Below are positions 2,891 through 40,743 of a stretch of 40,743 nt of DNA, in pieces. The notes under the pieces are model-generated. The model did no database searches, was not told where the DNA came from, and saw only the letters and a program-made list of their open reading frames with translations. How positions within the stretch are numbered: position 1 is the first letter of the stretch; the number at the start of each line of letters is the position of its first letter. The translations under genes were made by a program, and so were the position numbers. Origin of the DNA: a virus (taxonomy: Duplodnaviria; Caudoviricetes); the IMG/VR virus record IMGVR_UViG_3300018914_000074. The stretch is one strand, 5' to 3'.

Positions 2891-3066
2891 AGACGTACAT
2901 CATCCGCTTTAATCACCCCGAACGTGGCACAATCTCCGCGGAGGTCGTGGCCGGCACTGAGGCCGATGCTCGAGAGGACTTCGCGCAACGGCATCCCCAT
3001 TGTGAGATCATCGGCTCGAACGCGAAGCCGCAGCGCTGGGATGCGTATCGGGTGTTAGGGGATTGA
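2887..3066 (+). CDS. Small hypothetical protein (59 aa, MKTYIIRFNHPERG...), not in ORF track
   Basis: GGGAGG SD, ATGA overlap with previous gene, open to TGA 3064-3066. Confidence 0.7.
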   Translation: MKTYIIRFNHPERGTISAEVVAGTEADAREDFAQRHPHCEIIGSNAKPQRWDAYRVLGD

Positions 3067-3148
3067 CTCGGGCGGTTACGCCCGCTTTTATCTGCATTGT
3101 TTTGCTCTATCACGTTTTCAAAGGGTGATATGGAAGGAGGTGAGAGAT

Positions 3149-3364
3149 TTGGAGAATGCACCGGAGAAAACTTTCGAGCAAAGCGTGCTCGATCAGCTCG
3201 TCGAAGACGGTTATGCGGTCCACGCTGACGGAGAGCGCTGGATCTTGACGGAAAAGGGTCAGCGCATGGTGGAGCGGGAATTTCGACGTTACGAGCTGCG
3301 TCCAGGGATGCACATCATGATAGGCATGCACTACGCCGAGAAATTTGGCTTCAAACTGGTTTGA
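3149..3364 (+). CDS. Hypothetical protein (possible winged-helix)
   Basis: AGGAGGTGA SD then TTG 3149; WILTEKG motif. Confidence 0.65.
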   Translation: MENAPEKTFEQSVLDQLVEDGYAVHADGERWILTEKGQRMVEREFRRYELRPGMHIMIGMHYAEKFGFKLV

Positions 3365-3378
3365 TTGGAGGAAGCGGG

Positions 3379-3468
3379 ATGATCGATTGGTTCGGAATTA
3401 TATTCTCGGCATTGCTTGTCGCCGGATCGCTGATCGCGATTCGGAACCGGGAGGCGCGGCGGAAATGA
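3379..3468 (+). CDS. 29-aa single-TM peptide MIDWFGIIFSALLVAGSLIAIRNREARRK, not in ORF track
   Basis: GGAGG SD, hydrophobic core, basic tail, ATGA coupling to next gene. Confidence 0.65.
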   Translation: MIDWFGIIFSALLVAGSLIAIRNREARRK

Positions 3469-3599
3469 CGGACGAGCAGTTGGATCGACTCGGCGAATAT
3501 TTCGTCTACCATCGGGTCCGCGAGCGTTACGGGCTCACCTTCGAGCAATTCGTCGAGAAGTACCGGAGAGGGACGTGGGAGGCGTGGTTGGCAGCATGA
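3465..3599 (+). CDS. Hypothetical protein (44 aa, MTDEQLDRLG...)
   Basis: GGGAGG SD, ATGA overlaps at both ends. Confidence 0.65.
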   Translation: MTDEQLDRLGEYFVYHRVRERYGLTFEQFVEKYRRGTWEAWLAA

Positions 3600-3829
3600 A
3601 ACCCGGGGACCGATTCATCTACAACGAAAAGGGCATGGTCGCGAAAGTCACACTCGTCTCGTACGAGCTTCAAAACGGCAGCTGGCACGCCTTCGAGTTT
3701 CGGGTCGACAAAATCTACGCCTCGGAGCCGCTGAAAGACGGGAACGTTCCGAAGCCGGTCGAGATCGTGAAAGTCGGGTACCGGGATGGATACAAGCATT
3801 ATGCAGGATGGGAGATCGATCGGCTATGA
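3596..3829 (+). CDS. Hypothetical protein
   Basis: GGAGG SD, MKPGDRF start, coupled overlaps. Confidence 0.65.
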   Translation: MKPGDRFIYNEKGMVAKVTLVSYELQNGSWHAFEFRVDKIYASEPLKDGNVPKPVEIVKVGYRDGYKHYAGWEIDRL

Positions 3830-3939
3830 CCCGCCGCCAGCGTACATACGAGAACTTGCTGCAGCTTGCCACAATGGCGCGTAGCTGGCGGACGGAACGG
3901 GTTTATCTCAATCAAATACCATGGGAGGCATTCAAATGA
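3826..3939 (+). CDS. Small hypothetical protein (37 aa, MTRRQRTYENLL...), not in ORF track
   Basis: ATGA overlaps at both ends fill the gap exactly. Confidence 0.55.
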   Translation: MTRRQRTYENLLQLATMARSWRTERVYLNQIPWEAFK

Positions 3940-4211
3940 AAAGCACAGGAGTTGTTCGAAAGGTGGACGAGCTGGGGCGCATCGTTATCCCTATGGAGCT
4001 GCGGCGGACGCTGGGGATCGGCGAGAAAGACCCATTGGAGGTATTCGTAGACGGGGAGCGCATTGTGCTGCGGAAGTACGCTCCGGGCTGCGTCTATTGC
4101 GGGTCGGTGGATGATGGATTGAAGACGCTCTTGGACAAGCTGGTTTGTCGCAAATGTACGGAGCAGATAGCGGAGCAATTGACGACAAGCGGTAACGTAA
4201 AAAGCAAATAA
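3936..4211 (+). CDS. abrB: AbrB/Abh-family transition-state regulator
   Basis: MKSTGVVRKVDELGRIVIPMELRRTLGI signature plus C-terminal CxxC...CxxC. Confidence 0.92.
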   Translation: MKSTGVVRKVDELGRIVIPMELRRTLGIGEKDPLEVFVDGERIVLRKYAPGCVYCGSVDDGLKTLLDKLVCRKCTEQIAEQLTTSGNVKSK

Positions 4212-4310
4212 GCCGCCGGTCCAGGGCGACTTATTGCAAAACGAAAATGTTTATTTGAACCCATTATACACGATATTGGCTGTGCGGAAAAGATCGGAAG
4301 GAGTGCGCCC

Positions 4311-4727
4311 ATGTCCATCGCTTCGTTACATACCAAAGAAGACCAGCAACGGGCGTTAATGATTCTGCTCAAGAGAGCGGATCGGTGCGACTTGGACACT
4401 CCGTCCGGCGTGGCTCGAAAGATTGAACTGCTGTCCGAAGCTCAGGTCATTATCGGTCGATTTGCAGCTAATGCGGTCCGGGATTACAATCGCGTTTATG
4501 CGGAGCGGAAGCGGGTTCATGCGGAAGCTTTTCTCGCAGCGAAGCGGGACAAGGCTCATCATGCGGAGCTTGCTGTCGTCGAGCTGCGGCTGAAAGAGGC
4601 AGAGCTCGAGGCGGAAAAGGTGCGCTGGAATAACGCGTTCGCTTCCAACCTGGAAGTCATCAACAGCTTGAAGTATACGCACAAAGTGCTGATGGCGGAA
4701 ATGCTGAACCCGCAGAACGGATCCTGA
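4311..4727 (+). CDS. Hypothetical coiled-coil protein
   Basis: AAGGAG SD, helical E/K/A-rich sequence. Confidence 0.7.
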   Translation: MSIASLHTKEDQQRALMILLKRADRCDLDTPSGVARKIELLSEAQVIIGRFAANAVRDYNRVYAERKRVHAEAFLAAKRDKAHHAELAVVELRLKEAELEAEKVRWNNAFASNLEVINSLKYTHKVLMAEMLNPQNGS

Positions 4728-4791
4728 TCTCGGGGGAGAGGAGGATGATGCGAGGCATGACGCCCGAATGCAGACCAAATAAAGGTGGGAT

Positions 4792-5667
4792 ATGGGAATG
4801 GCGTGGCTAGAGAGTCATCAAGAGCTGGGCAGGCATCCGAAAACAAAAAAGCTCGCGAGACTTCTCGGCGTTTCTGTTCCTGCAGCCGTTGGCCACCTAC
4901 ATTTCTTGTGGTGGTGGGCTCTCGATTACGCCCAAGACGGCGATCTATCCCGATTCGATAACGAGGATATCGCCGACGCATGCGGATGGGAAGGCGAGGC
5001 ATCCACGATGGTTAGAGGTCTTGTGGACGCCGGATTTATTGAGAGCGATATGCAGATTCACGATTGGGAGGAATACGCGGGACGTCTTGTCGAGAAGCGG
5101 GAGCAAAACAAGGAGCGGAAGCGGAAGTCACGCGCCCGTCACGCGCCCGTCACGGAAGACGGCAACGCCCGTCACGGGGCTACAGTACCTAACCAAACAG
5201 AACCTAACCATATTACTACTGCAACTGCGCCCGCGCACGAACCTGTTTCCGAACCACCACTGGTGACGGATGAATCCGAAGAACCGATCGGCGGCGGGTA
5301 CAAGACGATAAACGACGCTCACACAAAAGTGTTTGGAACGCTCACGATCTCCCCGCTGTTCCATGATTTTTACCGATCGATTTTGAACCGGGGAAACTCA
5401 ACGGAATACGTCATCGAGCTGCTTTACGAAGTTGGTTCACACGCAACAAAGCCGTCGCTGGAGTACATGCAAAAAGTGGACCGAAGTTGGCAGGAGCAAG
5501 GGATAAGATCGCGGGCAGAAGCCAGGTCGAAGAACGAGCAGCGAACGGGAAGCAGGGGCGCCCGCGGCAGTCGACAAGCAGACCAAGCTCAGAAGCTCCG
5601 CGAAATGCAGGAGCAATTCGCAAGGGAGGAGACCAATGCAGAAAGCGGAAGTGGCCCGCCTGTTTGA
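4792..5667 (+). CDS. Phage replication initiator / replisome organiser
   Basis: MAWLESHQEL.RHPK...LWWW...IHDWEEY N-terminus, internal iterons, precedes loader and DnaB. Confidence 0.85.
   Translation: MGMAWLESHQELGRHPKTKKLARLLGVSVPAAVGHLHFLWWWALDYAQDGDLSRFDNEDIADACGWEGEASTMVRGLVDAGFIESDMQIHDWEEYAGRLVEKREQNKERKRKSRARHAPVTEDGNARHGATVPNQTEPNHITTATAPAHEPVSEPPLVTDESEEPIGGGYKTINDAHTKVFGTLTISPLFHDFYRSILNRGNSTEYVIELLYEVGSHATKPSLEYMQKVDRSWQEQGIRSRAEARSKNEQRTGSRGARGSRQADQAQKLREMQEQFAREETNAESGSGPPV
5127..5220 (+). repeat. Probable replication origin: iterons plus A-rich tract
   Basis: CGCCCGTCACG at 5133, 5144, 5166; ACCTAACCA twice (5187, 5202); lambda-like position inside initiator gene. Confidence 0.7.
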
Positions 5668-5971
5668 GCAGGTGACGATGGCCTATCCAAACTTTACAGC
5701 TGACAAGGAGAAAGTGCTGTTCTGGCACCAATACCTGCAGGACATCAGCTTTGATCAAGCTGCCGAGAACCTTCGGCGCCATATAGTGTCAAGCACGTTC
5801 CCGCCAACGATCGCCGATCTGCGGCGGCCGCTTGTGCAGAAAGATCCAGAACAGCACGTAGATTACGCGAAACTTGGTGCGGAAACCAAAGAACGGCTCC
5901 ACGACATGGAACGATGGGCAGCGGAAGCGACACCGCCGCCGTGGAGACGCGGAGGTGTAATCGGTGACTGA
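5636..5971 (+). CDS. Replicative helicase loader/inhibitor (SPP1 G39P-like)
   Basis: AYPNF...W...L.D...FPPTIADL pattern; directly upstream of DnaB. Confidence 0.85.
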   Translation: MQKAEVARLFEQVTMAYPNFTADKEKVLFWHQYLQDISFDQAAENLRRHIVSSTFPPTIADLRRPLVQKDPEQHVDYAKLGAETKERLHDMERWAAEATPPPWRRGGVIGD

Positions 5972-7298
5972 ACTGAACATGTCGAACTTTATCAACCTGG
6001 AAGCGGAGCAGGCCGTGCTCGGAGCAATCCTCCTGAGCCCTGAGGCTCTCGATGTGGCGCTTGAGTGGGTGAAGGTCGAGGATTTCTACAAGGAGGGGCA
6101 TCAAAGCATCCTCCAGGGCATGATCGAGTTATCCGATTCGAACAAACCGATCGACCTGATCACCCTGACTGAGCAGCTGATGAGTGACGGTAAGCTCGCT
6201 GGCATTGGCGGCGTGAAGTACCTTACCGAGCTGGCCGGATCCGTACCGACGGCCGCCAACATCCGCCACTACCTATCGATCGTGAAGAACAAGTCACTCT
6301 CGCGAAAGGCTTTCAGAGCAGCCAAGGCGATGATGGATAACGGCAAAGAGATGGATGACCCGAAGGCATTCATCGCCAGCATGCAGGAGGTCGCGGATTC
6401 ACTCGGAGATGAGCTCCGACCCGAACGTGAATTCGTCGCAACAGGCCAGATACTTCGGGAACATTCGGATCTGCTCGATGTGCGTTATAACAGCAACGGG
6501 GAGGTCGTAGGCGTTAAAACCGCCAGCAGAGACCTTGATCGACTCACATCAGGGAGGCAGAAGCAGGACTTCATCATCATTGCTGCTCGGCCGTCTGTAG
6601 GCAAGACAGCGTTCATGTTGAACGATGCACTCGCCGCGGCCAAGGGGGGCACGACGGTCGGAATATTCAGCCTCGAGATGCCGAGGACGTCGCTTGCAGA
6701 GCGCATGATTGCGGCTCTAGGGGATATCGACGGAATGAAGCTTCGAACGGGTCGACTCGATGCAAACGACTGGGAGCGTTACACGGGCGCAGCGGCAAAG
6801 CTGTCGAACCTCCCGATCTACATCGACGATACTCCAGGACTCTCGGTTCAGCAGATCCGGTCGAAGATGCGAGCCTTCCGCAAGAAGCACGGGGACAACA
6901 TTATTTTCTACATCGACTACCTGCAGCTCATCAACGGCGGCCGCGTGTTCCAGAACCGAAACCTCGAGATCGGCCACATCTCCAGGACGCTCAAGCAGTG
7001 CGCCCGGGACAACAACTGCCCGGTTGTCGCATTGTCGCAGTTAAGCCGGGCCGTGGAGCAGCGTCAGGACAAGCGACCGATGATGTCCGATCTGCGTGAG
7101 TCTGGAGACATCGAACAGGATGCGGACGAGATTGAATTTTTGTATCGGGACGACTATTACAATGCCGAGTCCGAGAAGAAAAACATCGTCGAAGTCATCG
7201 TCGCAAAAGGCCGGAACACAGGAACGGGCGTCGTCGAAGTGGTTTACCTCAAAAACTACAGTAAGTTCGTCGATCTCGACCGGGGACACAGCGCATGA
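5964..7298 (+). CDS. dnaB: Replicative DNA helicase
   Basis: EAEQAVLGAIL, AARPSVGKT, FSLEM, IDYLQL, LSQLSR, DLRESGDIEQDAD. Confidence 0.97.
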   Translation: MTELNMSNFINLEAEQAVLGAILLSPEALDVALEWVKVEDFYKEGHQSILQGMIELSDSNKPIDLITLTEQLMSDGKLAGIGGVKYLTELAGSVPTAANIRHYLSIVKNKSLSRKAFRAAKAMMDNGKEMDDPKAFIASMQEVADSLGDELRPEREFVATGQILREHSDLLDVRYNSNGEVVGVKTASRDLDRLTSGRQKQDFIIIAARPSVGKTAFMLNDALAAAKGGTTVGIFSLEMPRTSLAERMIAALGDIDGMKLRTGRLDANDWERYTGAAAKLSNLPIYIDDTPGLSVQQIRSKMRAFRKKHGDNIIFYIDYLQLINGGRVFQNRNLEIGHISRTLKQCARDNNCPVVALSQLSRAVEQRQDKRPMMSDLRESGDIEQDADEIEFLYRDDYYNAESEKKNIVEVIVAKGRNTGTGVVEVVYLKNYSKFVDLDRGHSA

Positions 7299-7651
7299 GT
7301 GCCGACATAGCTTACATACTTCACGACCCGCGGCCGAACACACCGGACACGAAACGCTGGCGCTGTGCGCTACTCCTGGTTCACCGGCTAGCACCGGATC
7401 CGGAAACAGCTATCGAGCTCGCTTCGCGGCTTTGGACGATGAGAGCGATGGGAACGACCATGGTGCTGGAGCGGGGAGGATTACGGTTCGCATATCTGCC
7501 CGGCCAGTGGGAGAACGAAGCGGATTTCGAGGAGTTCAAGGCCATCTCCTTCCGCGAATTTCGAAACGAGGTCATCCAGCTGCTGTATCAAGTCGAGATG
7601 ACTGCAGATAGACGGGAGGTGCCGGAAGCGTGGAAGGTTTACGCGAGATGA
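7295..7651 (+). CDS. Hypothetical protein
   Basis: ATGA coupling, SD. Confidence 0.7.
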   Translation: MSADIAYILHDPRPNTPDTKRWRCALLLVHRLAPDPETAIELASRLWTMRAMGTTMVLERGGLRFAYLPGQWENEADFEEFKAISFREFRNEVIQLLYQVEMTADRREVPEAWKVYAR

Positions 7652-7941
7652 CCGACGCCGAGCTGTACCGCATTGCCACGAGCCCGGAGAGCCGGCTGGG
7701 GCTCCGCTATGAGGCTGCGCGGGAGTTGCAAGAAAGGAGGGGGGACAGAAGTGGGCAAAGAGCGCAGGCGGAAAATGACCATAGACAATCAGCTAAATCA
7801 ACTAGAACTCAGCTGGAAAAGTTACGAGTGGCTGATCAAAGACCGCCTGATCAAGATCGACGAAATAACTCGCAGCATGATCAAGGAAATGCACCTTTGC
7901 GGGGTCCCCTCCTCAATGATCGCGGAACATCTCCCCCGTAG
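7648..7941 (+). CDS. Small hypothetical protein (MTDAELYRIA...); 3' end uncertain, overlaps next gene
   Basis: ATGA coupling at start; C-terminal half looks off-frame. Confidence 0.45.
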   Translation: MTDAELYRIATSPESRLGLRYEAARELQERRGDRSGQRAQAENDHRQSAKSTRTQLEKLRVADQRPPDQDRRNNSQHDQGNAPLRGPLLNDRGTSPP

Positions 7942-8026
7942 GTTTGAAGATCTCAAACGAAGAGTTGTTGATGAAAATGACAGACGGTTTCACGGGAATC
8001 AGCACAGTAGGATGGTGAACGAATGA
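7751..8026 (+). CDS. Hypothetical protein (start GTG 7751 or ATG 7775)
   Basis: AGGAGG SD; ATGA coupling to next gene. Confidence 0.6.
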   Translation: MGKERRRKMTIDNQLNQLELSWKSYEWLIKDRLIKIDEITRSMIKEMHLCGVPSSMIAEHLPRRFEDLKRRVVDENDRRFHGNQHSRMVNE

Positions 8027-8229
8027 AAACGAGCGAGCGGGTTTTGAAATACATCATCCAGCACCGGGAAATGCACGGATACGCGCCTACGATCCGCGAG
8101 ATCTGCGAAGGTGTTGGGCTGAGATCTTCGTCGACGGTGAATGGGCACCTGCAACGCCTAGAGCAAAAGGGCAGGATCAAACGGAAGCCGGCAAGCCCGC
8201 GGGCGATTGAGGTTATTGCGAATGGGTAG
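8023..8229 (+). CDS. LexA DNA-binding-domain-only protein
   Basis: GYAPTIREICEGVGLRSSSTVNGHLQRLEQKG.I.R...PRAIEV; no peptidase domain. Confidence 0.88.
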   Translation: MKTSERVLKYIIQHREMHGYAPTIREICEGVGLRSSSTVNGHLQRLEQKGRIKRKPASPRAIEVIANG

Positions 8230-8665
8230 ACGGATCGGGTCTTGGACTCCACGTCCCCGCCTTCACGGCCAGAACAAATTCGGCGCCAAGAAAGTTATAG
8301 TAACCACCGATGGCACGATGTTCGAGGTCGATATGCTCAGGCGTCACGGCATCAATGACGTCACCGGCATCAAGTTCGACAGCAAGATGGAGGCCGAGTA
8401 TTATCTGCTGCTCAAGAAGCGGATGGCGGCCGGCGAGATCCAAGACATTGTGCTGCAGCCAGAGTTCATTTTGCAGGACAAGCCTCGGATTAAGTATAAG
8501 GCGGATTTCCAAGTGGTGTATCCCGGCGGTGACTTCGAAGTGATCGACGTCAAGGGACACATCACGAAGGACTTCAGGCTAAAGCAGAAGCTGTTTGCGG
8601 CCGTCTACGAGGACTACAAGCTGACCCTCGTTACCAAGCGGAGCGGGAGATGGATGGAGCGGTGA
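8222..8665 (+). CDS. DUF1064-family PD-(D/E)xK nuclease (putative Holliday junction resolvase)
   Basis: NKFGAKK, FDSKMEAEYY, LQPEF.LQ, YKADF, IDVKG. Confidence 0.85.
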   Translation: MGRRIGSWTPRPRLHGQNKFGAKKVIVTTDGTMFEVDMLRRHGINDVTGIKFDSKMEAEYYLLLKKRMAAGEIQDIVLQPEFILQDKPRIKYKADFQVVYPGGDFEVIDVKGHITKDFRLKQKLFAAVYEDYKLTLVTKRSGRWMER

Positions 8666-8720
8666 ACCGCGTCCGCGCCGTAGCCATGGAGGAAAAGACC
8701 CGAAGCGGGAGCAGAGCGCA

Positions 8721-9254: not shown

Positions 9255-9797
9255 ATGGAAGTCGTACAGCCGATCCGGAGCGTCGAGAAGCTTGAACGGA
9301 TGAAAGCGGTGCTGCGAGAGCGATCGGAGCGCGACTGGTTCCTGCTCGTGATGGGAATTAATGTCGGCCTTCGCATCGGCGATCTTCTCAAGCTTCACGT
9401 CCGGGACGTCCGGAATAAATCGCACATCCGCATCATCGAAGGCAAGACGCAGAAGCGCAAACGGTTCCCGATCAACGCGGAGCTGCGCGAAATCATAAAT
9501 CAGTACACGAAGGGCATGAAGGATGACGCTCCGTTGTTCCCGAGCTACCGGACGAAGCAGAACATCGGAAGGGTGCAGGCGTACCGCATCCTGAACTACG
9601 CGGCGGCGGAGGTCGGTCTGATTGAGATCGGGACGCACACGCTGCGGAAGACGTTTGGGTACCATTTCTACAAGCGATACAAGGACGTCGCACTGCTGCA
9701 GGAGATATTCAATCATTCGGCGCCGTCGATTACGATGCGCTATATCGGAATCAACCAAGACATTATTGACGAGGCCGTTGGCGGCTTCCATCTGTGA
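9255..9797 (+). CDS. Short tyrosine recombinase, copy 1 (catalytic domain only)
   Basis: VQPIR, GLRIGD, KTQK, HTLRKTFGYH, FNHS, RYIG. Confidence 0.93.
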   Translation: MEVVQPIRSVEKLERMKAVLRERSERDWFLLVMGINVGLRIGDLLKLHVRDVRNKSHIRIIEGKTQKRKRFPINAELREIINQYTKGMKDDAPLFPSYRTKQNIGRVQAYRILNYAAAEVGLIEIGTHTLRKTFGYHFYKRYKDVALLQEIFNHSAPSITMRYIGINQDIIDEAVGGFHL

Positions 9798-11724: not shown

Positions 11725-12267
11725 GTGAATTATGTTCAACCGATCCGCGATCCGGAGCTCATCACCGACATCAAGAAGTATCTGCGGGAGACGAACGAGC
11801 GAAATTACATCCTGTTCGTCCTTGGCATAAACACGGGCCTCCGGATCTCCGACATCTTGAAGCTCCGCGTGAAGGACGTCAGGGGAACGCACATCAGCAT
11901 GCGGGAGACGAAGACAGGGAAGCAGAAGCGTATCCTGATCAATCCGACGCTGAAGAACGAGCTCAAGGGCTACATAGAGGGCAAGGACGGCGACGAATAC
12001 CTCATCAAGAGCCGCCAGGGCTACAACAAGCCGATCAGCCGCGAAATGGCCTACAAGCTCCTCAACCAAGCCGCCAAGGTCTTCGGCCTCGAAGAGATCG
12101 GCACCCACACCATGAGAAAGACCTTCGGTTACCACCACTATCTGAAATACAAAAACATCGCGCTGCTGATGGACATCTTCAACCACTCCTCCGAACGAAT
12201 CACGCTGCGGTATATCGGCGTTAACCAGGACACGATGGACAACACGTTGAGCCGTTTTAGCCTTTAA
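11725..12267 (+). CDS. Short tyrosine recombinase, copy 2 (catalytic domain only)
   Basis: VQPIRD, GLRISD, KTGK, HTMRKTFGYH, FNHS, RYIG. Confidence 0.93.
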   Translation: MNYVQPIRDPELITDIKKYLRETNERNYILFVLGINTGLRISDILKLRVKDVRGTHISMRETKTGKQKRILINPTLKNELKGYIEGKDGDEYLIKSRQGYNKPISREMAYKLLNQAAKVFGLEEIGTHTMRKTFGYHHYLKYKNIALLMDIFNHSSERITLRYIGVNQDTMDNTLSRFSL

Positions 12268-35718: not shown

Positions 35719-35760
35719 CCCCCGCTGGCCGTATTGGCTGGCGGGGGATTTTTTATTTTT
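35719..35760 (+). terminator. Terminator between convergent lysis and moron genes
   Basis: CCCCCGCTGGCC-GTATT-GGCTGGCGGGGG then T-run. Confidence 0.75.
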
Positions 35761-36424
35761 ATTCGAGGATTATTTCAGTGACAACATCTTCACTCAGGTC
35801 ATTATAGTTCGCATCGTATGCAGGTTCTACAAACAGATTGAGGCTTTTTATATCCAGCACGTTTCCTTTCGCCTCATAGAAATACGTTCCTTTACGGACG
35901 ACTTTGCCTTTGTATTCTCCGCTCATCGTATCGTATGTAAGGCCGGTTATTTGCTCCTTAGTGTCGGTCACGATTTCGCCGCCGGGGTACCAGGTGACCG
36001 TATTGTTAGAAGTGTTTTCAATCGTCATTTCAAGGAGAACTGCATTTACGGGCTCATAATGATCGTCGTACTTGTAAGCCGGATCTAGTGTAACCTTGGA
36101 AATTTTCATTACCATAGGACCGCTTTGTAAGGTTACGTCGACGTTAAATGATTTTGCACTAGAGGCTGGGGACGTTGTCGTCGCATTCTTACCAGTGATC
36201 GTAATCGTGTTCGTCACAGGGTCGAAATTCACTTCCGCGCCAAGTAACTCCGCTGCAGATCGGAGCGGAACGTATGTCACTCCGTCGATCAGTTTTGTTT
36301 CGGCTGCGGATACCTTGCCGTTAACGATGAGCGTGAGTTTGGTGGCTGCGCTTGCGGCAGATGCCGAAACGATTGCCGTTAGCGCTACAAGAGTAACAAT
36401 TCCCCATTTTTTCATAAGATCCAA
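35759..36424 (-). CDS. Secreted protein: signal peptide, stalk domain, DUF4352-like Ig domain (moron)
   Basis: MKKWGIVTLVALTAIVSASAASA, TYVPLRSAAELLGA.V.FD, MTIENTS. Confidence 0.78.
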   Translation of the reverse strand: MDLMKKWGIVTLVALTAIVSASAASAATKLTLIVNGKVSAAETKLIDGVTYVPLRSAAELLGAEVNFDPVTNTITITGKNATTTSPASSAKSFNVDVTLQSGPMVMKISKVTLDPAYKYDDHYEPVNAVLLEMTIENTSNNTVTWYPGGEIVTDTKEQITGLTYDTMSGEYKGKVVRKGTYFYEAKGNVLDIKSLNLFVEPAYDANYNDLSEDVVTEIILE

Positions 36425-36658: not shown

Positions 36659-36886
36659 TTATGGCCAGAAATCATCCGGGTTTACGTTATATCCCATTCT
36701 CCGCAGAGCTCCGATAATTTTCACCTGCGTCTTCTCCCCAGGTCTGATGTTCTTCCGACCATCGCAAAGGTCCGAGATCCCATCCCGACTGACTCCGCTT
36801 TTCTTTGCTACCAGCTCCTGCGAAAGCTCCGCGTCCGCGTCGATAAATTTACCGAGCCGGGTCCGCGGTTTACCCAATCCGAACAT
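36659..36886 (-). CDS. XRE-family HTH regulator divergent from terminal operon
   Basis: MFGLGKPRTRLGKFID...SQELVAKKSGVSRDGIS.LC...DFW; GGGAGG SD. Confidence 0.85.
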   Translation of the reverse strand: MFGLGKPRTRLGKFIDADAELSQELVAKKSGVSRDGISDLCDGRKNIRPGEKTQVKIIGALRRMGYNVNPDDFWP

Positions 36887-37018
36887 AAGTCCAACCTCCC
36901 CATGCTTTTCTAGCAATAGGGTGGACAACTCTATGAAAAATTATTCAAAAACTCCGAAACATGGACAATCAATTAGTCATACACATGTATCACAACCGTC
37001 AGACGGAGGGTGATGCGA

Positions 37019-37273
37019 ATGTCGGGCAAAGAAAGGGAGAAGATCGAGGCGCGGCTGAGGAAGAACCGCGACGCGGACCTGCGGCAAGCGACGGCCGGAA
37101 TTAGCGCCGGCGAGCTCTCGGAAATGGTCAGGGATGGCTTACGCTACATGCTCGGGATTCGGACGAAGAAAACCATCCAAATTGTAGAGCAGCCGATCGT
37201 CGCACAACAGCCACGGCCAATCCCGGTCGCAGGCAAGTCGGCCGTCTTCCGGCCCAATAATCAATCGAGGTGA
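37019..37273 (+). CDS. Small putative ribbon-helix-helix DNA-binding protein
   Basis: IEARLR...DADL...LSEMVRDGLR strand-helix-helix pattern. Confidence 0.55.
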   Translation: MSGKEREKIEARLRKNRDADLRQATAGISAGELSEMVRDGLRYMLGIRTKKTIQIVEQPIVAQQPRPIPVAGKSAVFRPNNQSR

Positions 37274-37278
37274 GAGCT

Positions 37279-37701
37279 ATGGCACGTACGGAGGTAATCC
37301 CGTTCCGTGAGTTCGTCCGGGGCGAATGGAAGCCGAAGACGACGGTCGAGATCATCGTCGAACACTTCGACCGGAACAAGATCGTTTACCGGGTCGCCGG
37401 CGTCACGGCGACGCTGTGCCTGGCGGGCGCCGACCTGAGCTTCGCGGCCGACGCGGTGTCGGCATTCGCTCCGACGACACAGGATGCGATCGACGCAAAG
37501 GCCGAGGCGATTTACCGGCCGCTGGTTGGGATCGGCAAATGGGTGATCGTGTTCAAAGGGGGATTGGACACGGTGACGAACATGGTTCAGGGAGATATGA
37601 TCTCGGCGCGCAAGAATTTCCTTGGGTATCTGCTGGTTTACGTCATTCTGCTCGGGCTGCCCTGGTGTCTGGAACAGGTCGAGGGGATCTTCGAGGTGTA
37701 A
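37279..37701 (+). CDS. Membrane protein, VirB2/TrbC pilin-like architecture
   Basis: Leader with SFA/AFA motifs followed by two hydrophobic segments. Confidence 0.6.
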   Translation: MARTEVIPFREFVRGEWKPKTTVEIIVEHFDRNKIVYRVAGVTATLCLAGADLSFAADAVSAFAPTTQDAIDAKAEAIYRPLVGIGKWVIVFKGGLDTVTNMVQGDMISARKNFLGYLLVYVILLGLPWCLEQVEGIFEV

Positions 37702-37714
37702 GGAGGGACACGGC

Positions 37715-38401
37715 ATGCCTATGAAGTTTCGTCTCACGTCGCCCTACGGCACCCTCGAAGAGGTCCGCGACGGCCGGGTGCACACCGGCATCGACCTCGC
37801 CATGCCGCGCGGCACGGAGCTGCACAGCGTTGCAGACGGCGTCGTCGAGCGCGTGGTCGACTACGGCGCCGAGAACATCGGAAAGGGCGTCATTCTCCGC
37901 CTGGACGACGGAACGAGGATCGTGTACGGCCACATGGATAAAGTGACCGTCCACGACGGGGAGCGGATCCGCGTCGGCGAGCTGCTCGGCTTCAGCGGGA
38001 ACACTGGCCACTCGACCGGGCCGCACCTGCACTTTGCCATGATGCGGGGTGGAGAGTGGATCGATCCGACGCCGATGGCGGAGACGGTCGACAAGTTTAG
38101 CGGGGGTGGCGTGGGCTCGGCGCTTACCGCACCGATCAGGGGTCTCGCGGAGCGGGCACTCGGCAGCACGGTCGGCGAGGCGAAAGCCGCAGTGAGGGGC
38201 CACATTCAGGAGCAGATCGTTGACTGGCTGGCCGCGACGGGGAACCTTCTCGTCGACGCGATCTACCCGATCACACTGATTGGATGCGGGTTGGGCATCG
38301 TCCTCGGGGTCGTTGGGCTCAAAGATGGGTACCGCTGGAGCGGGATCCTATTCACCGTGTATGTATTGGTCCGATTTTTCGTGAGAGGTGTTGCAGCATG
38401 A
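37715..38401 (+). CDS. M23 (LytM) peptidoglycan peptidase with C-terminal TM helices
   Basis: HTGIDLA, YGHM, GNTGHSTGPHLHF; two C-terminal hydrophobic segments. Confidence 0.9.
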   Translation: MPMKFRLTSPYGTLEEVRDGRVHTGIDLAMPRGTELHSVADGVVERVVDYGAENIGKGVILRLDDGTRIVYGHMDKVTVHDGERIRVGELLGFSGNTGHSTGPHLHFAMMRGGEWIDPTPMAETVDKFSGGGVGSALTAPIRGLAERALGSTVGEAKAAVRGHIQEQIVDWLAATGNLLVDAIYPITLIGCGLGIVLGVVGLKDGYRWSGILFTVYVLVRFFVRGVAA

Positions 38402-40743
38402 AGTCCGTCCCGATCCGCAACGTGCTGCAAGTCGTCCGCCCGGAGTATGCTTTTCTAAGACTCAAACCAAATAATTCGATTCGGAACCAAGCCACGCACA
38501 AAATCGCCCGGGCAATCGCTACGCTATACAAGAACATACTTGAGAACGTGAAGCGGGAGGAGGAGAAGCTCATCAAGGTGCTCGGCCGCGAGTTTTTGCT
38601 CGGTACACGGTACAGCGTGACGGCGCCGGCCAAGGTCAGCTATTACGTCTACATGGAGCGGCAGCGCATCGAGTTCTATTTCATCGTTCCGCGCCAGCAC
38701 CTCAGTTTTCTGCGAGAGAAGATCACAGACGTCTGGACCGGCGTCACGATCGAGGAGGTAGACGCACTGCCGGAGTTCGGCGTAGGCGCGACGAAGCTGC
38801 AGCTGCATTACGAGAAGGAGGACGCCCTCAGCCTGGCGACGGACCGCCGCAACAACGACCTGCTGCTGAGCAACCTGAACGTTGTTGAGCTCCTCGAGGA
38901 GGGTGACAAGGCTGCGGTGTTCTATAACTTCCTGCCCGGCTCCCAGTTCTCCTGGCGCGCCACGTACCGCCATACGATCGACAAGGTGAACCGTCACATG
39001 CCGGTCGACCGTAACAAGGCGGGCCTCGGCTACGCGGCCAAGATGGCGCTTTCGGTGGCCAACACGCTGCTGTCGGAGATGGGCGAGGTGTTCACCGGAA
39101 AGAAAGCAAAAGAGACGCGTACGAACCTACTGGAGGGGCTGATCGAGCGCCTGAACGGCGGCAAGGCTATCAGCGAGTCTACGCAGCGGAAAGCCGGCGC
39201 GACGATCCTGAACACGGAAATCGTGGTCCTCAGCGAGAGTGCCGACGGTCTCCGGCAGCGGAACGCGGCGCGCAGCCTGGCGCAGAGCTTTGACACGATC
39301 TCGGAGGACAACAGGCTCGCGTATAAGCCGTACCGACGTACGTTCCACTTCACGGACTACACGCTGCATGCAGAGCGGAACAAGATCGGAGACCAGGAGG
39401 CGCAGAACTTCATCGCTCTGCCGGGGCGCGAGGTGCTTGAGCGTTTTGCAGGGATTGAGCGGGTGGAGACGCAGGAGACGGAAGTGCCGGAGGATTTGCG
39501 GCATGGCGTCATGTGCATCGGTACGAACACGTACCGCGGCCAGGAGCAGAAGGCGTACCTCTCGACGGACCGGGAATACCGGAACCTGACGCTGGTGCTA
39601 ATCGGTCCGACGCGCGCCGGCAAGTCGACGCTGCTCGGGAACCTCGGCGCGGACGCGATCCGAAACGGTGAGTGCATGATCGTCTTCGACTTCATCTCGA
39701 ACTGCCAGCTCAGCAGCGAGATCGCCGCGCTGTTCCCGCCGGAGAAAGTTCTGAACATCGAGTGCGGGGATCTCCGGAAGCTGCAAGGGCTCGGCTACAA
39801 TGAGATCGGCCGCAGCGCGGATCCACTCCGCCAATACGAGAACGCGAAGATGTCGGCGACGCAGCTGCAGACGCTGGTCAATGCGATCGCGACAAACGAT
39901 GCGCCGCTGACGCCAAAAATGAAGCGTTATCTGCAGGCGGCTGCGCTCGTCGTCTTCATCAACGGTGGGGCTATCCGAGACGTATTCGAGGTGCTGCAGG
40001 ACCACGAGGCGCGCGCCGTAGCAATCAATGCGGCGCCGGCCTCGCAGGCGGAGCTTCTCCGCAAGCATGCCGCGAGTCTCGCCGAGCTCGATGAGACCGA
40101 CAAGAAGGGCGTCGTGACCGGAACGAAGGATTCGCTTATATCCGGCATCATCGACCGCATGAACGAGCTCGAGGCGAACACGTACCTCGAGATGATGCTG
40201 CAGAAAGATACGGCCGGCAATATCGACCTCGTAAAGGAGATCCAGAAGAACCAACTGATCTGCATCCGGATGCCGGAGCGCGCCTACCCGACGGACGCCG
40301 AGAAGGACGTCATCTGCACCTACTGGATGTCGAAGCTCCGACTCGCGCTCCAGATCCGCGACTACCAGATCCCGGACCGCTCGAAGCATACGAAGGTGAA
40401 CATGGTCATCGACGAATTGTACCAGGTGCGCACGACGGAACGGATGCTGAAGGAGAATCTAAGCCGGCTCGCAAAATTCAGCTTGAAGCCGATCATCAGC
40501 TGCCACTATTTGAACCAGATCAACATCATCCGAGACGAGCTCCGGAGTGCCAACGCTTCCTACATGCTGATAAGCGGGTGCGATAAGAAGAACTATGCGG
40601 AGCTGCAGAGTGAGCTGTATCCGTACCAGGAGGAGGACCTGCTCAACCTGCCTCGGTACCATTCCCTCAACCTGATTAAGAACGCCGATGGGTACGCACG
40701 GTTCATCACGAAGCTGCCGAAGCCTGTTCGAAATGCCACCTAG
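38398..40743 (+). CDS. HerA/FtsK-superfamily ATPase, VirD4/TrwB coupling-protein-like
   Basis: Walker A GPTRAGKST, IVFD, Walker B MVIDE, C-terminal DLLNLPRYH; GAGGTG SD and ATGA coupling. Confidence 0.8.
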   Translation: MKSVPIRNVLQVVRPEYAFLRLKPNNSIRNQATHKIARAIATLYKNILENVKREEEKLIKVLGREFLLGTRYSVTAPAKVSYYVYMERQRIEFYFIVPRQHLSFLREKITDVWTGVTIEEVDALPEFGVGATKLQLHYEKEDALSLATDRRNNDLLLSNLNVVELLEEGDKAAVFYNFLPGSQFSWRATYRHTIDKVNRHMPVDRNKAGLGYAAKMALSVANTLLSEMGEVFTGKKAKETRTNLLEGLIERLNGGKAISESTQRKAGATILNTEIVVLSESADGLRQRNAARSLAQSFDTISEDNRLAYKPYRRTFHFTDYTLHAERNKIGDQEAQNFIALPGREVLERFAGIERVETQETEVPEDLRHGVMCIGTNTYRGQEQKAYLSTDREYRNLTLVLIGPTRAGKSTLLGNLGADAIRNGECMIVFDFISNCQLSSEIAALFPPEKVLNIECGDLRKLQGLGYNEIGRSADPLRQYENAKMSATQLQTLVNAIATNDAPLTPKMKRYLQAAALVVFINGGAIRDVFEVLQDHEARAVAINAAPASQAELLRKHAASLAELDETDKKGVVTGTKDSLISGIIDRMNELEANTYLEMMLQKDTAGNIDLVKEIQKNQLICIRMPERAYPTDAEKDVICTYWMSKLRLALQIRDYQIPDRSKHTKVNMVIDELYQVRTTERMLKENLSRLAKFSLKPIISCHYLNQINIIRDELRSANASYMLISGCDKKNYAELQSELYPYQEEDLLNLPRYHSLNLIKNADGYARFITKLPKPVRNAT

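What the first reader, a model, noticed from the sequence alone, without database searches (positions are those of the whole stretch)
36659..40743. Conjugation-like DNA-transfer operon at the end of an intact tailed prophage
Seen: a divergent HTH gene faces a tightly linked operon of an RHH-like protein, a pilin-like membrane protein, an M23 peptidase with C-terminal TMs and a 781-aa P-loop ATPase. Established: a VirD4/TrwB/FtsK-type motor, a wall hydrolase and small membrane proteins are core parts of Gram-positive conjugation systems, and Streptomyces TraB moves dsDNA without a relaxase. Related FtsK-containing modules occur at this position in Bacillus cereus-group phages without a clear function. 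Inference: this could be a minimal virion-independent DNA translocation system, moving the excised circle between cells or into the forespore. No relaxase, second T4SS ATPase or oriT is recognisable in the window.
Basis: partly seen in the sequence, partly recalled or inferred. Interest (0 to 1): 0.85.

Follow-up and report, generated by a model that had tools for sequence, protein, structure and literature searches.

The report
Phage pilin-VirB4 module with mother-cell promoter
This prophage carries a real four-gene set, found almost only in viruses of spore-forming bacteria, that looks like a cut-down piece of bacterial mating machinery, is likely switched on in the mother cell during spore formation, and would most likely move viral DNA into the developing spore; the set is already in print for phages SPP1 and SPO1, but its job is untested.

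Summary
The operon lies inside the prophage (54-bp att repeat; attR about 0.92 kb past the ATPase) and has no relaxase. The ATPase is VirB4-like over its length, not VirD4 or FtsK. It belongs to the family of SPP1 gp32 and SPO1 gp27.4, described in print as a 'DNA translocation operon' that is dispensable in the laboratory. This scan has reported the module before on other DNA. Added here: pilin-like gene, membrane hairpin and ATPase form the fixed core (49 and 48 of 49 loci); M23, ParM and TubZ are optional. Phage hits are almost all from spore-formers, lytic phages included. A mother-cell-type (sigmaE/sigmaK) -10 element precedes the operon in 20 of 30 loci (shuffles 6.6; other genes at chance), although the window's own copy has one mismatch. 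The same host has a sister module with FtsK plus Replic_Relax behind the same promoter motif. Best reading (0.45): it moves phage DNA from mother cell to forespore. Cell-to-cell transfer (0.2) and a pilus or protein-export role (0.25) remain open. No function was shown. Existing SPP1 deletion mutants make the question directly testable.

The parts
36659..36886 (-). Divergent XRE/Cro-type HTH gene (75 aa), likely regulator of the module
   Evidence: Weak HTH_3/HTH_31 hits; a divergent HTH in 28 of 49 related loci; 40% identical to the HTH facing the sister FtsK module on contig C39
36956..36985 (+). Predicted mother-cell-type promoter: ACA (36959-36961), 16 bp, CATACACA (36978-36985, last base off consensus), enclosing a conserved GGACAA box (36961-36970)
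   Evidence: Motif enrichment in relatives. A matrix trained on 17 other loci scores this site 14.2 bits; 99th percentile of 1590 host upstream regions is 7.1. No sigma70-type site on this strand here. No transcript data.
37019..37273 (+). Small basic protein (84 aa), RHH/ParR-like by pattern and position (slot of SPP1 gp31); no ParM partner in this copy
   Evidence: No family hit; small RHH-like genes upstream in 34 of 49 loci, often directly after ParM or TubZ
37279..37701 (+). Pilin-like membrane protein (140 aa): predicted leader ending at conserved Ala56, then a helical hairpin
   Evidence: Present in 49 of 49 loci; alignment; model; leader aligns with SPP1 gp31.1, E 3e-5; Atlas neighbours TrbC/T4SS_pilin at 0.88, a lead only
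37715..38401 (+). M23 peptidase fused to the N-terminus of a conserved two-helix membrane hairpin (slot of SPP1 gp31.2); hairpin is core, M23 is accessory
   Evidence: PF01551 E 1.4e-26; hairpin in 48 of 49 loci; M23 N-fused in 23, C-fused in 2, separate in 3, absent in 16 of 44 loci
38398..40743 (+). VirB4-like two-domain ATPase (781 aa), phrog_5156; family of SPP1 gp32, SPO1 gp27.4 and 0305phi8-36 gp201
   Evidence: phrog_5156 E 2.9e-89; model pLDDT 83; best Foldseek hits are full-length R388 TrwK/VirB4; VIA Z 26.8 VirB4 C-domain, 25.8 TrwB, 17.5 FtsK, and residues 13-781 align to TrwK at Z 19.1, rmsd 10.2
35759..36424 (-). Secreted Cu_amine_oxidN1/DUF4352-like protein; possibly travels with the module, role unclear
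   Evidence: PF07833; a 48% identical homologue follows the sister module on C39; a DUF4352 gene flanks the module in D6E
35719..35757 (+). Intrinsic terminator closing the lysis genes, so the module is unlikely to be read from the late promoter
   Evidence: 13-pair stem with T tail

Best explanation
The operon is a prophage-internal, relaxase-free core of pilin-like protein, membrane hairpin and VirB4-like ATPase that is likely transcribed in the mother cell of a sporulating host and would most likely carry phage DNA across the forespore envelope, so that a phage caught in the doomed mother cell survives inside the spore. Shown: gene content, position inside att sites, fold of the ATPase, fixed core, optional M23/ParM/TubZ, host range, enrichment of a CATANNNT element. 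Inferred: that sigmaK or sigmaE reads the promoter; that the two small proteins form the membrane conduit and anchor the soluble ATPase; that the RHH-like protein marks phage DNA (with ParM or TubZ pushing it to the forespore where they exist); that M23 opens septal or cortex peptidoglycan; that DNA is the cargo and the forespore the destination. For an integrated prophage the module would matter on fresh infection of a sporulating cell or after induction, since the integrated copy is inherited anyway.
For: (1) Host range: 60 of 60 phage records hit by this ATPase, 106 of 107 hit by the SPP1-type and 145 of 146 hit by SPO1 gp27.4 are named for spore-forming genera or are phage D6E; none is from Streptococcus, Lactococcus, Staphylococcus or Enterococcus, which gave 459, 413, 283 and 145 of 3044 terminase hits. 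Records include duplicates. (2) Promoter: CATANNNT within 140 nt of the first gene in 20 of 30 dereplicated loci (shuffle mean 6.6, maximum 9 of 40 rounds); reverse strand 8 of 30; other genes 27 of 178 against 28.2. PMC3789822 (passages) gives this -10 type for sigmaE/sigmaK, with AC or ATA at -35. The phage-trained matrix picks the matching site before the host's dpaA (98.7th percentile) and SPP1 gene 31 (98.5th), while seven SASP/spoVT regions fall at 7-86. In SPP1 a terminator sits just upstream of a sigmaE-like site. (3) DNA as cargo: ParM in 15 and TubZ in 4 of 49 loci; Replic_Relax follows the ATPase in SPO1, CP-51, Tsamsa and 0305phi8-36; one pilin family serves both FtsK-type and VirB4-type modules; the host's FtsK module has the same promoter motif (30.6 bits). 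(4) Dispensable on lawns: PMC6316719, PMC3357382. (5) The host has the sporulation genes searched for, and SPO1 forms virospores (PMC12991052, passages).
Against: No experiment or transcript shows expression, transport or destination. This clade has no relaxase (0 of 62 loci with a weak four-sequence profile; none among 52 downstream proteins by Pfam), no coupling protein and no recognised VirB6/VirB8 channel; in bacterial systems VirB4 mainly assembles pilus and channel (established knowledge). The window's -10 lacks the final T; the strict sigmaK pattern fits only 7 of 30 loci. Only 7 of 14 named phage modules have CATANNNT before the gene taken as first (shuffles 3.0; 5 of 300 reach 7); SPO1, CP-51, SP10, TP-84 and MMB025 do not. 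Host sigmaE genes score only at percentiles 39-91 with the matrix, whose training sites were picked partly for these features. An antisense sigmaE-type promoter faces the operon in 13 of 37 loci and is unexplained. PMC6316719 lists genes 31-32 among early genes. Exceptions by label: Microcystis phage MaeS and, for the sister pilin, two Staphylococcus phages. The genome survey is uninformative: 11 of 11 hit genomes have spoIVA, but so do 324 of 401. Spore-former restriction could also reflect ancestry or envelope type.
Confidence: 0.45

Rival explanations
1. Assembly or export machine, not a DNA pump: the VirB4-like ATPase extracts the two hairpin proteins into a pilus-like or membrane structure, or exports protein, in sporulating cells. 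It could tether virions or DNA to the spore surface, disturb engulfment or cortex formation through M23, or block superinfection.
For: Fold and gene order match a virB2-virB3-virB4-like assembly block; no coupling protein, relaxase or channel in this clade; M23 is fused at either end of the hairpin, as expected for display on one face; a sigmaK-like promoter implies late, post-engulfment timing.
Against: Does not explain the repeated pairing with ParM/TubZ plus RHH (19 of 49 loci), with Replic_Relax in distant members, or the swap with FtsK behind the same pilin family and promoter.
Confidence: 0.25
2. Cell-to-cell, virion-free transfer of phage DNA, here as an escape from starving or sporulating cells to neighbours.
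For: Conjugation-type parts and a wall hydrolase; the archaeal Ced/Ted systems move DNA with only pilin, VirB6-like and VirB4-like proteins and no relaxase (PMC9905601, passages); the 0305phi8-36 version has a relaxase and a reported VirB6-like gene.
Against: Does not predict absence from phages of non-sporulating Firmicutes; no adhesin or large surface protein in the core; M23 absent in 16 of 44 loci although two mature walls would have to be crossed; 33 of 35 plasmid records with the ATPase are typed non-mobilizable.
Confidence: 0.2
3. Intracellular positioning or maintenance of episomal phage DNA (membrane anchoring, segregation at division) with no membrane crossing; or a plasmid-derived remnant, as suggested for Tyroviruses (PMC9703825).
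For: ParM/TubZ linkage; presence on phage-sized plasmids; early-gene placement in SPP1.
Against: 30 of 49 loci have no filament gene but keep the membrane core; Walker A intact in 62 of 62 ATPases and M23 motifs in 26 of 26, so not a remnant; promoter type and M23 are unexplained.
Confidence: 0.1

Closest known systems
SPP1 genes 31, 31.1, 31.2, 32 and GBK2 counterparts (Godinho et al. 2018, PMC6316719; passages read)
   Same: Same order: small DNA-binding-like gene, two small membrane proteins, soluble TrwB/VirB4/FtsK-like ATPase; no relaxase; proposed there as a possible translocon; gene 32 non-essential.
   Different: Here the second membrane protein carries an M23 domain, a divergent HTH faces the operon and the phage is temperate; ATPases about 22-23% identical. 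The paper does not mention spores (0 hits for 'spor').
'DNA translocation operon' of 0305phi8-36 (orf200-207) and SPO1 (27.3-27.9) (Pathria et al. 2012, PMC3357382; parts 1-4 of 6 read)
   Same: Homologous ATPase without TM domain; small membrane proteins; deletion has no plaque phenotype; virion-free spread proposed.
   Different: Those versions add Replic_Relax and ParM (0305phi8-36 also a reported VirB6-like gene); this one has none of them. No mention of spores or sigma factors.
Tyrovirus gp11-gp18 region (PMC9703825, passages) and Tsamsa gp256-263
   Same: RHH, membrane proteins, M23-hairpin fusion and type IV ATPase in the same order.
   Different: Includes ParM and Replic_Relax; interpreted there as plasmid-derived.
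FtsK/SpoIIIE + Replic_Relax module of Gamma-, GBSV1- and BV1-like phages; a copy on host contig C39
   Same: Divergent HTH of the same family, pilin-like gene, same promoter motif; its pilin family is also used by VirB4-type modules of D6E, PBC5 and TP-84.
   Different: Different motor (FtsK family), has a nicking protein, no M23; its pilin is not detectably similar to the window's.
VirB2-VirB3-VirB4 core of type IV secretion (R388 TrwK) and archaeal Ced/Ted (PMC9905601, passages)
   Same: VirB4-like two-domain ATPase; small two-helix membrane proteins; Ced/Ted also lack relaxase.
   Different: No VirB6-like channel, VirB8, coupling protein or oriT recognised; pilin identity not established; phage-borne.

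Membership tests
Gram-positive conjugative T4SS | VirB4-type ATPase | tested here: met
   Foldseek top hits full-length TrwK; VIA Z 26.8, rmsd 3.7, 340 aligned to the VirB4 C-domain; TrwB is within 1 Z unit for that domain
Gram-positive conjugative T4SS | Relaxase (with oriT) in the element | tested here: not met
   Replic_Relax absent from the prophage; no relaxase among 48 plus 14 prophage-region proteins scanned; oriT not searched
Gram-positive conjugative T4SS | Separate membrane-anchored coupling protein (VirD4/TcpA) | tested here: not met
   One ATPase only, without TM segment; one match to its profile in the genome
Gram-positive conjugative T4SS | VirB6/VirB8-like channel subunits | tested here: inconclusive
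   None in the operon or by family scans, but several prophage ORFs are unassigned and were not folded
Gram-positive conjugative T4SS | Peptidoglycan hydrolase | tested here: met
   M23 with intact zinc motifs; activity not assayed
VirB2/TrbC pilin | Sequence or structure match to the pilin families | tested here: inconclusive
   1 of 57 family members hits TrbC at E 0.083; Atlas 0.88; fold search gave only generic hairpins, Z at most 8.3; the D6E protein in the same slot hits T4SS_pilin just below cut-off but does not align with this family
Streptomyces TraB / FtsK translocases | FtsK_SpoIIIE motor domain with membrane anchor | tested here: not met
   No PF01580 hit, no TM; FtsK Z 17.5 over 214 residues against 26.8 over 340 for VirB4
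Streptomyces TraB / FtsK translocases | Cis-acting repeat locus recognised by the motor | not tested
   No search for clt-like repeats was run
SPP1 gp31-32 / SPO1 gp27.4 phage module | Homologous ATPase | tested here: met
   tblastn E 1e-13 to SPO1 27.4 and 2e-7 to 000TH010 gp47, which is 95% identical to SPP1 gp32
SPP1 gp31-32 / SPO1 gp27.4 phage module | Upstream small DNA-binding-like gene and two small membrane proteins in order | tested here: met
   Gene order; gp31.1 leader E 3e-5; gp31.2 hairpin only E 0.044
0305phi8-36/SPO1 full 'DNA translocation operon' | Replic_Relax and ParM in the operon | tested here: not met
   Neither in this copy
sigmaE/sigmaK regulon | -10 CATANNNT with AC or ATA at -35 | tested here: inconclusive
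   Enriched across relatives; window site ACA-16-CATACACA has one mismatch
sigmaE/sigmaK regulon | Mapped start site and sigma dependence | not testable with these tools
   No RNA holder listed
Ced/Ted DNA import systems | Pilin + VirB6-like channel + VirB4-like ATPase with shown DNA transfer | tested here: inconclusive
   ATPase class shared; channel not recognised; transfer not testable here

The most novel reading that the evidence does not exclude
Phages of spore-formers, lytic and temperate, share a dedicated machine, switched on by the host's mother-cell sigma factors, that injects the phage genome across the septum or forespore envelope: intracellular conjugation from mother cell to spore, built from a minimal type IV core with an exchangeable motor (VirB4-like or FtsK). 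It would be the missing active mechanism of virospore formation.
Probability: 0.4. Interest if true: 0.9.

Novelty: new member of a known kind. Interest (0 to 1): 0.58.

Why it matters
How phage genomes get into endospores has long been open; PMC12991052 names 0A boxes and Par-like genes as candidates and points to SPO1 gene 27.9. The module is in model phages of B. subtilis, deletion mutants exist, and they were only tested for plaques. The promoter and host-range evidence says which condition to test. If the module drives spore entry, it defines a phage dormancy route and a minimal type IV translocase. If not, it is still a widespread uncharacterised membrane machine. The gene set itself is not new.

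Tried and rejected
Neighbouring ICE or operon outside attR: rejected. VirD4/FtsK/TraB identity: rejected in favour of VirB4-like. Sequence search of solved structures with the ATPase profile: nothing significant. Pilin-like protein against phage records: no match at E 0.1; fold search uninformative. Atlas search of the second hairpin: best 0.87, unnamed. SpoIIID-box reading of the GGACAA motif: consensus recalled from memory, not found in the library; 9 of 30 loci against shuffle mean 2.9, maximum 8; kept as a lead only, and it may be the HTH operator. A forespore sigmaF reading of the antisense motif was considered by eye and dropped because the spacing did not fit the recalled consensus. Genome-level test of spore-former restriction: underpowered; some of the 11 hits are partial and may be other VirB4/HerA proteins. 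Expression: no RNA holder listed. ATPase-hairpin complex prediction: not obtained because the queue was full, so binding is untested. True host of MaeS: unresolved; its module resembles that of Bacillus phage Basilisk. Tree: M23 forms and ParM/TubZ are scattered, but labels for loci with short downstream flanks are unreliable and no formal test was run. Literature: ten searches gave no paper testing the module or noting a mother-cell promoter; subscription papers and supplements were not seen.


Full report
Observation. The five genes are at the stated place. A 75-aa HTH gene (36659-36886, minus) faces a tight run of four genes: 84 aa (37019-37273), 140 aa (37279-37701), 228 aa (37715-38401) and 781 aa (38398-40743). 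The third has a Pfam M23 domain (E 1.4e-26) with intact zinc motifs and a hydrophobic C-terminal hairpin. The fourth has Walker A and B motifs and no clear TM segment and matches only phrog_5156, of unknown function. The window is a 41.8-kb prophage in a tRNA-Gly gene: a 54-bp repeat lies at -117 and 41668, and head, tail, lysis, replication and integration genes are present. The operon is therefore phage DNA. Only small HTH-type frames separate it from attR.

What the ATPase is. An AlphaFold2 model (pLDDT 83) has two domains. Foldseek ranks full-length R388 TrwK/VirB4 first (E 2e-12, about 890 columns). VIA-align gives Z 26.8 for the VirB4 C-domain, 26.1 for DndH, 25.8 for TrwB, 24.1 for HerA and 17.5 for FtsK, and aligns residues 13-781 to TrwK at Z 19.1 with rmsd 10.2. 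The C-domain alone cannot separate VirB4 from TrwB; the full-length alignment and the lack of a membrane anchor favour VirB4. The N-domain was not folded alone.

Known relatives. The ATPase hits SPO1 gp27.4, SPP1-like gp32, D6E, CP-51, PBC1 and others. PMC6316719 (passages) notes SPP1 gp31.1, gp31.2 and gp32 as a possible translocon and lists gene 32 as non-essential. PMC3357382 (parts 1-4 of 6) names a 'DNA translocation operon' in 0305phi8-36 and SPO1, finds no plaque defect on deletion, and proposes cell-to-cell spread in biofilms; it does not mention spores. PMC9703825 (passages) reads the Tyrovirus copy as plasmid-derived. PMC11526630 (passages) describes the FtsK/Replic_Relax operon of a B. 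cereus-group phage. Eight earlier notes of this scan describe the module on other DNA; two of them already mention sporulation-type promoters, and they led me to the Pathria and Tyrovirus papers.

Conservation. Of 157 loci with a match (own-genome duplicates left out), 132 held a full-length ATPase, forming 66 clusters at 85% identity; the six named distant loci were set aside, leaving 62 representatives including the window. Among the 49 with 3 kb upstream, the pilin-like gene is in 49, the second hairpin in 48 (44 by the first gene calls), an RHH-like gene in 34 and a divergent HTH in 28, ParM in 15 and TubZ in 4. Among 44 with both flanks, M23 is fused N-terminally in 23, C-terminally in 2, a separate downstream gene in 3 and missing in 16. 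Replic_Relax was not found in any of the 62 (weak profile), but follows the ATPase in SPO1, CP-51, Tsamsa and 0305phi8-36. The 140-aa protein has a conserved leader and helical hairpin. Its link to VirB2/TrbC pilins is suggestive only.

Host range. In 50,697 phage records the three ATPase queries hit 60, 107 and 146 records. All are named for Bacillus, Geobacillus, Lysinibacillus, Brevibacillus, Alicyclobacillus, Clostridium or Terrisporobacter, or are D6E, except Microcystis phage MaeS in the last two. The prophage's terminase hit 3044 records led by Streptococcus, Lactococcus and Staphylococcus phages, which shows that such phages are well represented. Many carriers are strictly lytic (recalled for SPO1, SP10, CP-51, PBC1; stated for SPP1 and 0305phi8-36 in the papers read). 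A genome survey agreed but had no power (11 of 11 hits have spoIVA; 324 of 401 genomes do).

Promoter. Upstream of the first gene of the module, CATANNNT occurs in 13 of 25 loci in a first pass (shuffle mean 3.4; controls 16 of 178 against 15.3) and in 20 of 30 in a wider pass (6.6; controls 27 of 178 against 28.2). PMC3789822 (passages) describes this -10 type as shared by the mother-cell factors sigmaE and sigmaK, with ATA or AC at -35; PMC517825 (passages) gives the spacings but its logos are figures I could not see. The strict sigmaK pattern fits 7 of 30 (1.0 expected). The window has ACA-16-CATACACA, one base off. A matrix from 17 other loci, chosen partly for these features, scores the window site above the 99th percentile of 1590 host upstream regions, the host dpaA site at 98.7 and SPP1 gene 31 at 98.5; host sigmaE genes are middling and SASP/spoVT genes low to middling. 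SPP1 has a terminator directly before a sigmaE-like site. Only 7 of 14 named phage modules show the element; SPO1 does not. A second, antisense sigmaE-type promoter sits before the pilin-like gene in 13 of 37 loci (0.1 expected); the window lacks that gap.

Sister module. The genome's single Replic_Relax gene lies in a separate element of about 18 kb, bounded by a repeat at a tRNA-Pro gene on contig C39. It has a homologous divergent HTH, an FtsK_SpoIIIE gene, Replic_Relax, a T4SS_pilin-like gene and a homologue of the window's secreted protein, behind the same promoter motif (30.6 bits). Its pilin family occurs in 60 phage records, with FtsK-type and VirB4-type modules alike; two are labelled Staphylococcus phages, one with FtsK annotated as two pieces. 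A recognised DNA translocase family thus fills the same slot under the same control, which is the best indirect argument that DNA is the cargo.

Mechanism. A phage that enters a sporulating cell usually lands in the mother cell, which will lyse, while the forespore is sealed off (established). SPO1 genomes do end up in spores (PMC12991052, passages). A module that is useless on lawns, confined to phages of spore-formers, likely expressed in the mother cell and linked to partition filaments, nicking proteins and wall hydrolases fits transfer into the forespore best (0.45). Ced/Ted show that pilin, a VirB6-like protein and a VirB4-like ATPase can move DNA without relaxase (PMC9905601, passages), but this clade has no recognised channel. 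A pilus or protein-export role in sporulating cells (0.25), cell-to-cell spread (0.2) and plain positioning (0.1) remain. Binding between ATPase and membrane proteins was not modelled because the queue was full.

Verdict. Real, intact and conserved; a new member of a phage module known in print and seen repeatedly by this scan; not a conjugative T4SS and not TraB. Its interest lies in a sharpened, cheap test of an open question. Interest 0.58.

Noticed in passing
G000:C39:12440-30360 (L173 from 6440): About 18-kb element between direct repeats at tRNA-Pro, satellite-like (a tape-measure-like ORF seen, 12-20 kb part only), carrying the FtsK + Replic_Relax + pilin sister module with the same promoter motif.
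   Followed up: partly
L010 6800-6880 and equivalents in L012, L026, L030, L036, L048, L072, L074: Antisense sigmaE-type promoter followed by a hairpin between the RHH-like and pilin-like genes; in clostridial-type loci (L145, L147, L149) it precedes a small hydrophobic ORF. Could be a timing RNA.
   Followed up: partly
L010 10700-12400, L011, L014, L021, L047, L081; also L173 2905-4297: A membrane protein, AgrB-like protein, about 40-aa peptide and LytTR gene cluster often follows the ATPase in related prophages; a similar agr-like set lies near the C39 element. Possible phage-borne quorum sensing.
   Followed up: no
L001 11622-14500 versus 3000-8700: Contigs on the prophage have word depth 43-45 against about 30 on the flank, and a loose end at the att core resembles a tRNA-Gly 5' part. 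Weak hint of excision or strain mixture; depth is not copy number.
   Followed up: no
window 9255-9797 and 11725-12267: Two separate 180-aa catalytic-domain tyrosine recombinase genes (phrog_216) in the replication region, besides the main integrase.
   Followed up: no
G000 C7, window-equivalent -2300..-300 and 43400-45700: Paralogous low-complexity secreted-protein genes flank the prophage on both sides, the right one followed by a sortase-like ORF (by eye); they share repeats up to 34 bp.
   Followed up: no
window-equivalent 41000-41570 (just beyond the window): Two small divergent HTH-type frames between the ATPase and attR; one hits phage repressor families.
   Followed up: no
L031, L102 downstream of the ATPase: A stand-alone M23 gene is followed by a DndB-family gene in one clade of loci.
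   Followed up: no
BFVD hits: Bacillus phage G has two adjacent structural relatives of the ATPase (gp155, gp156).
   Followed up: no
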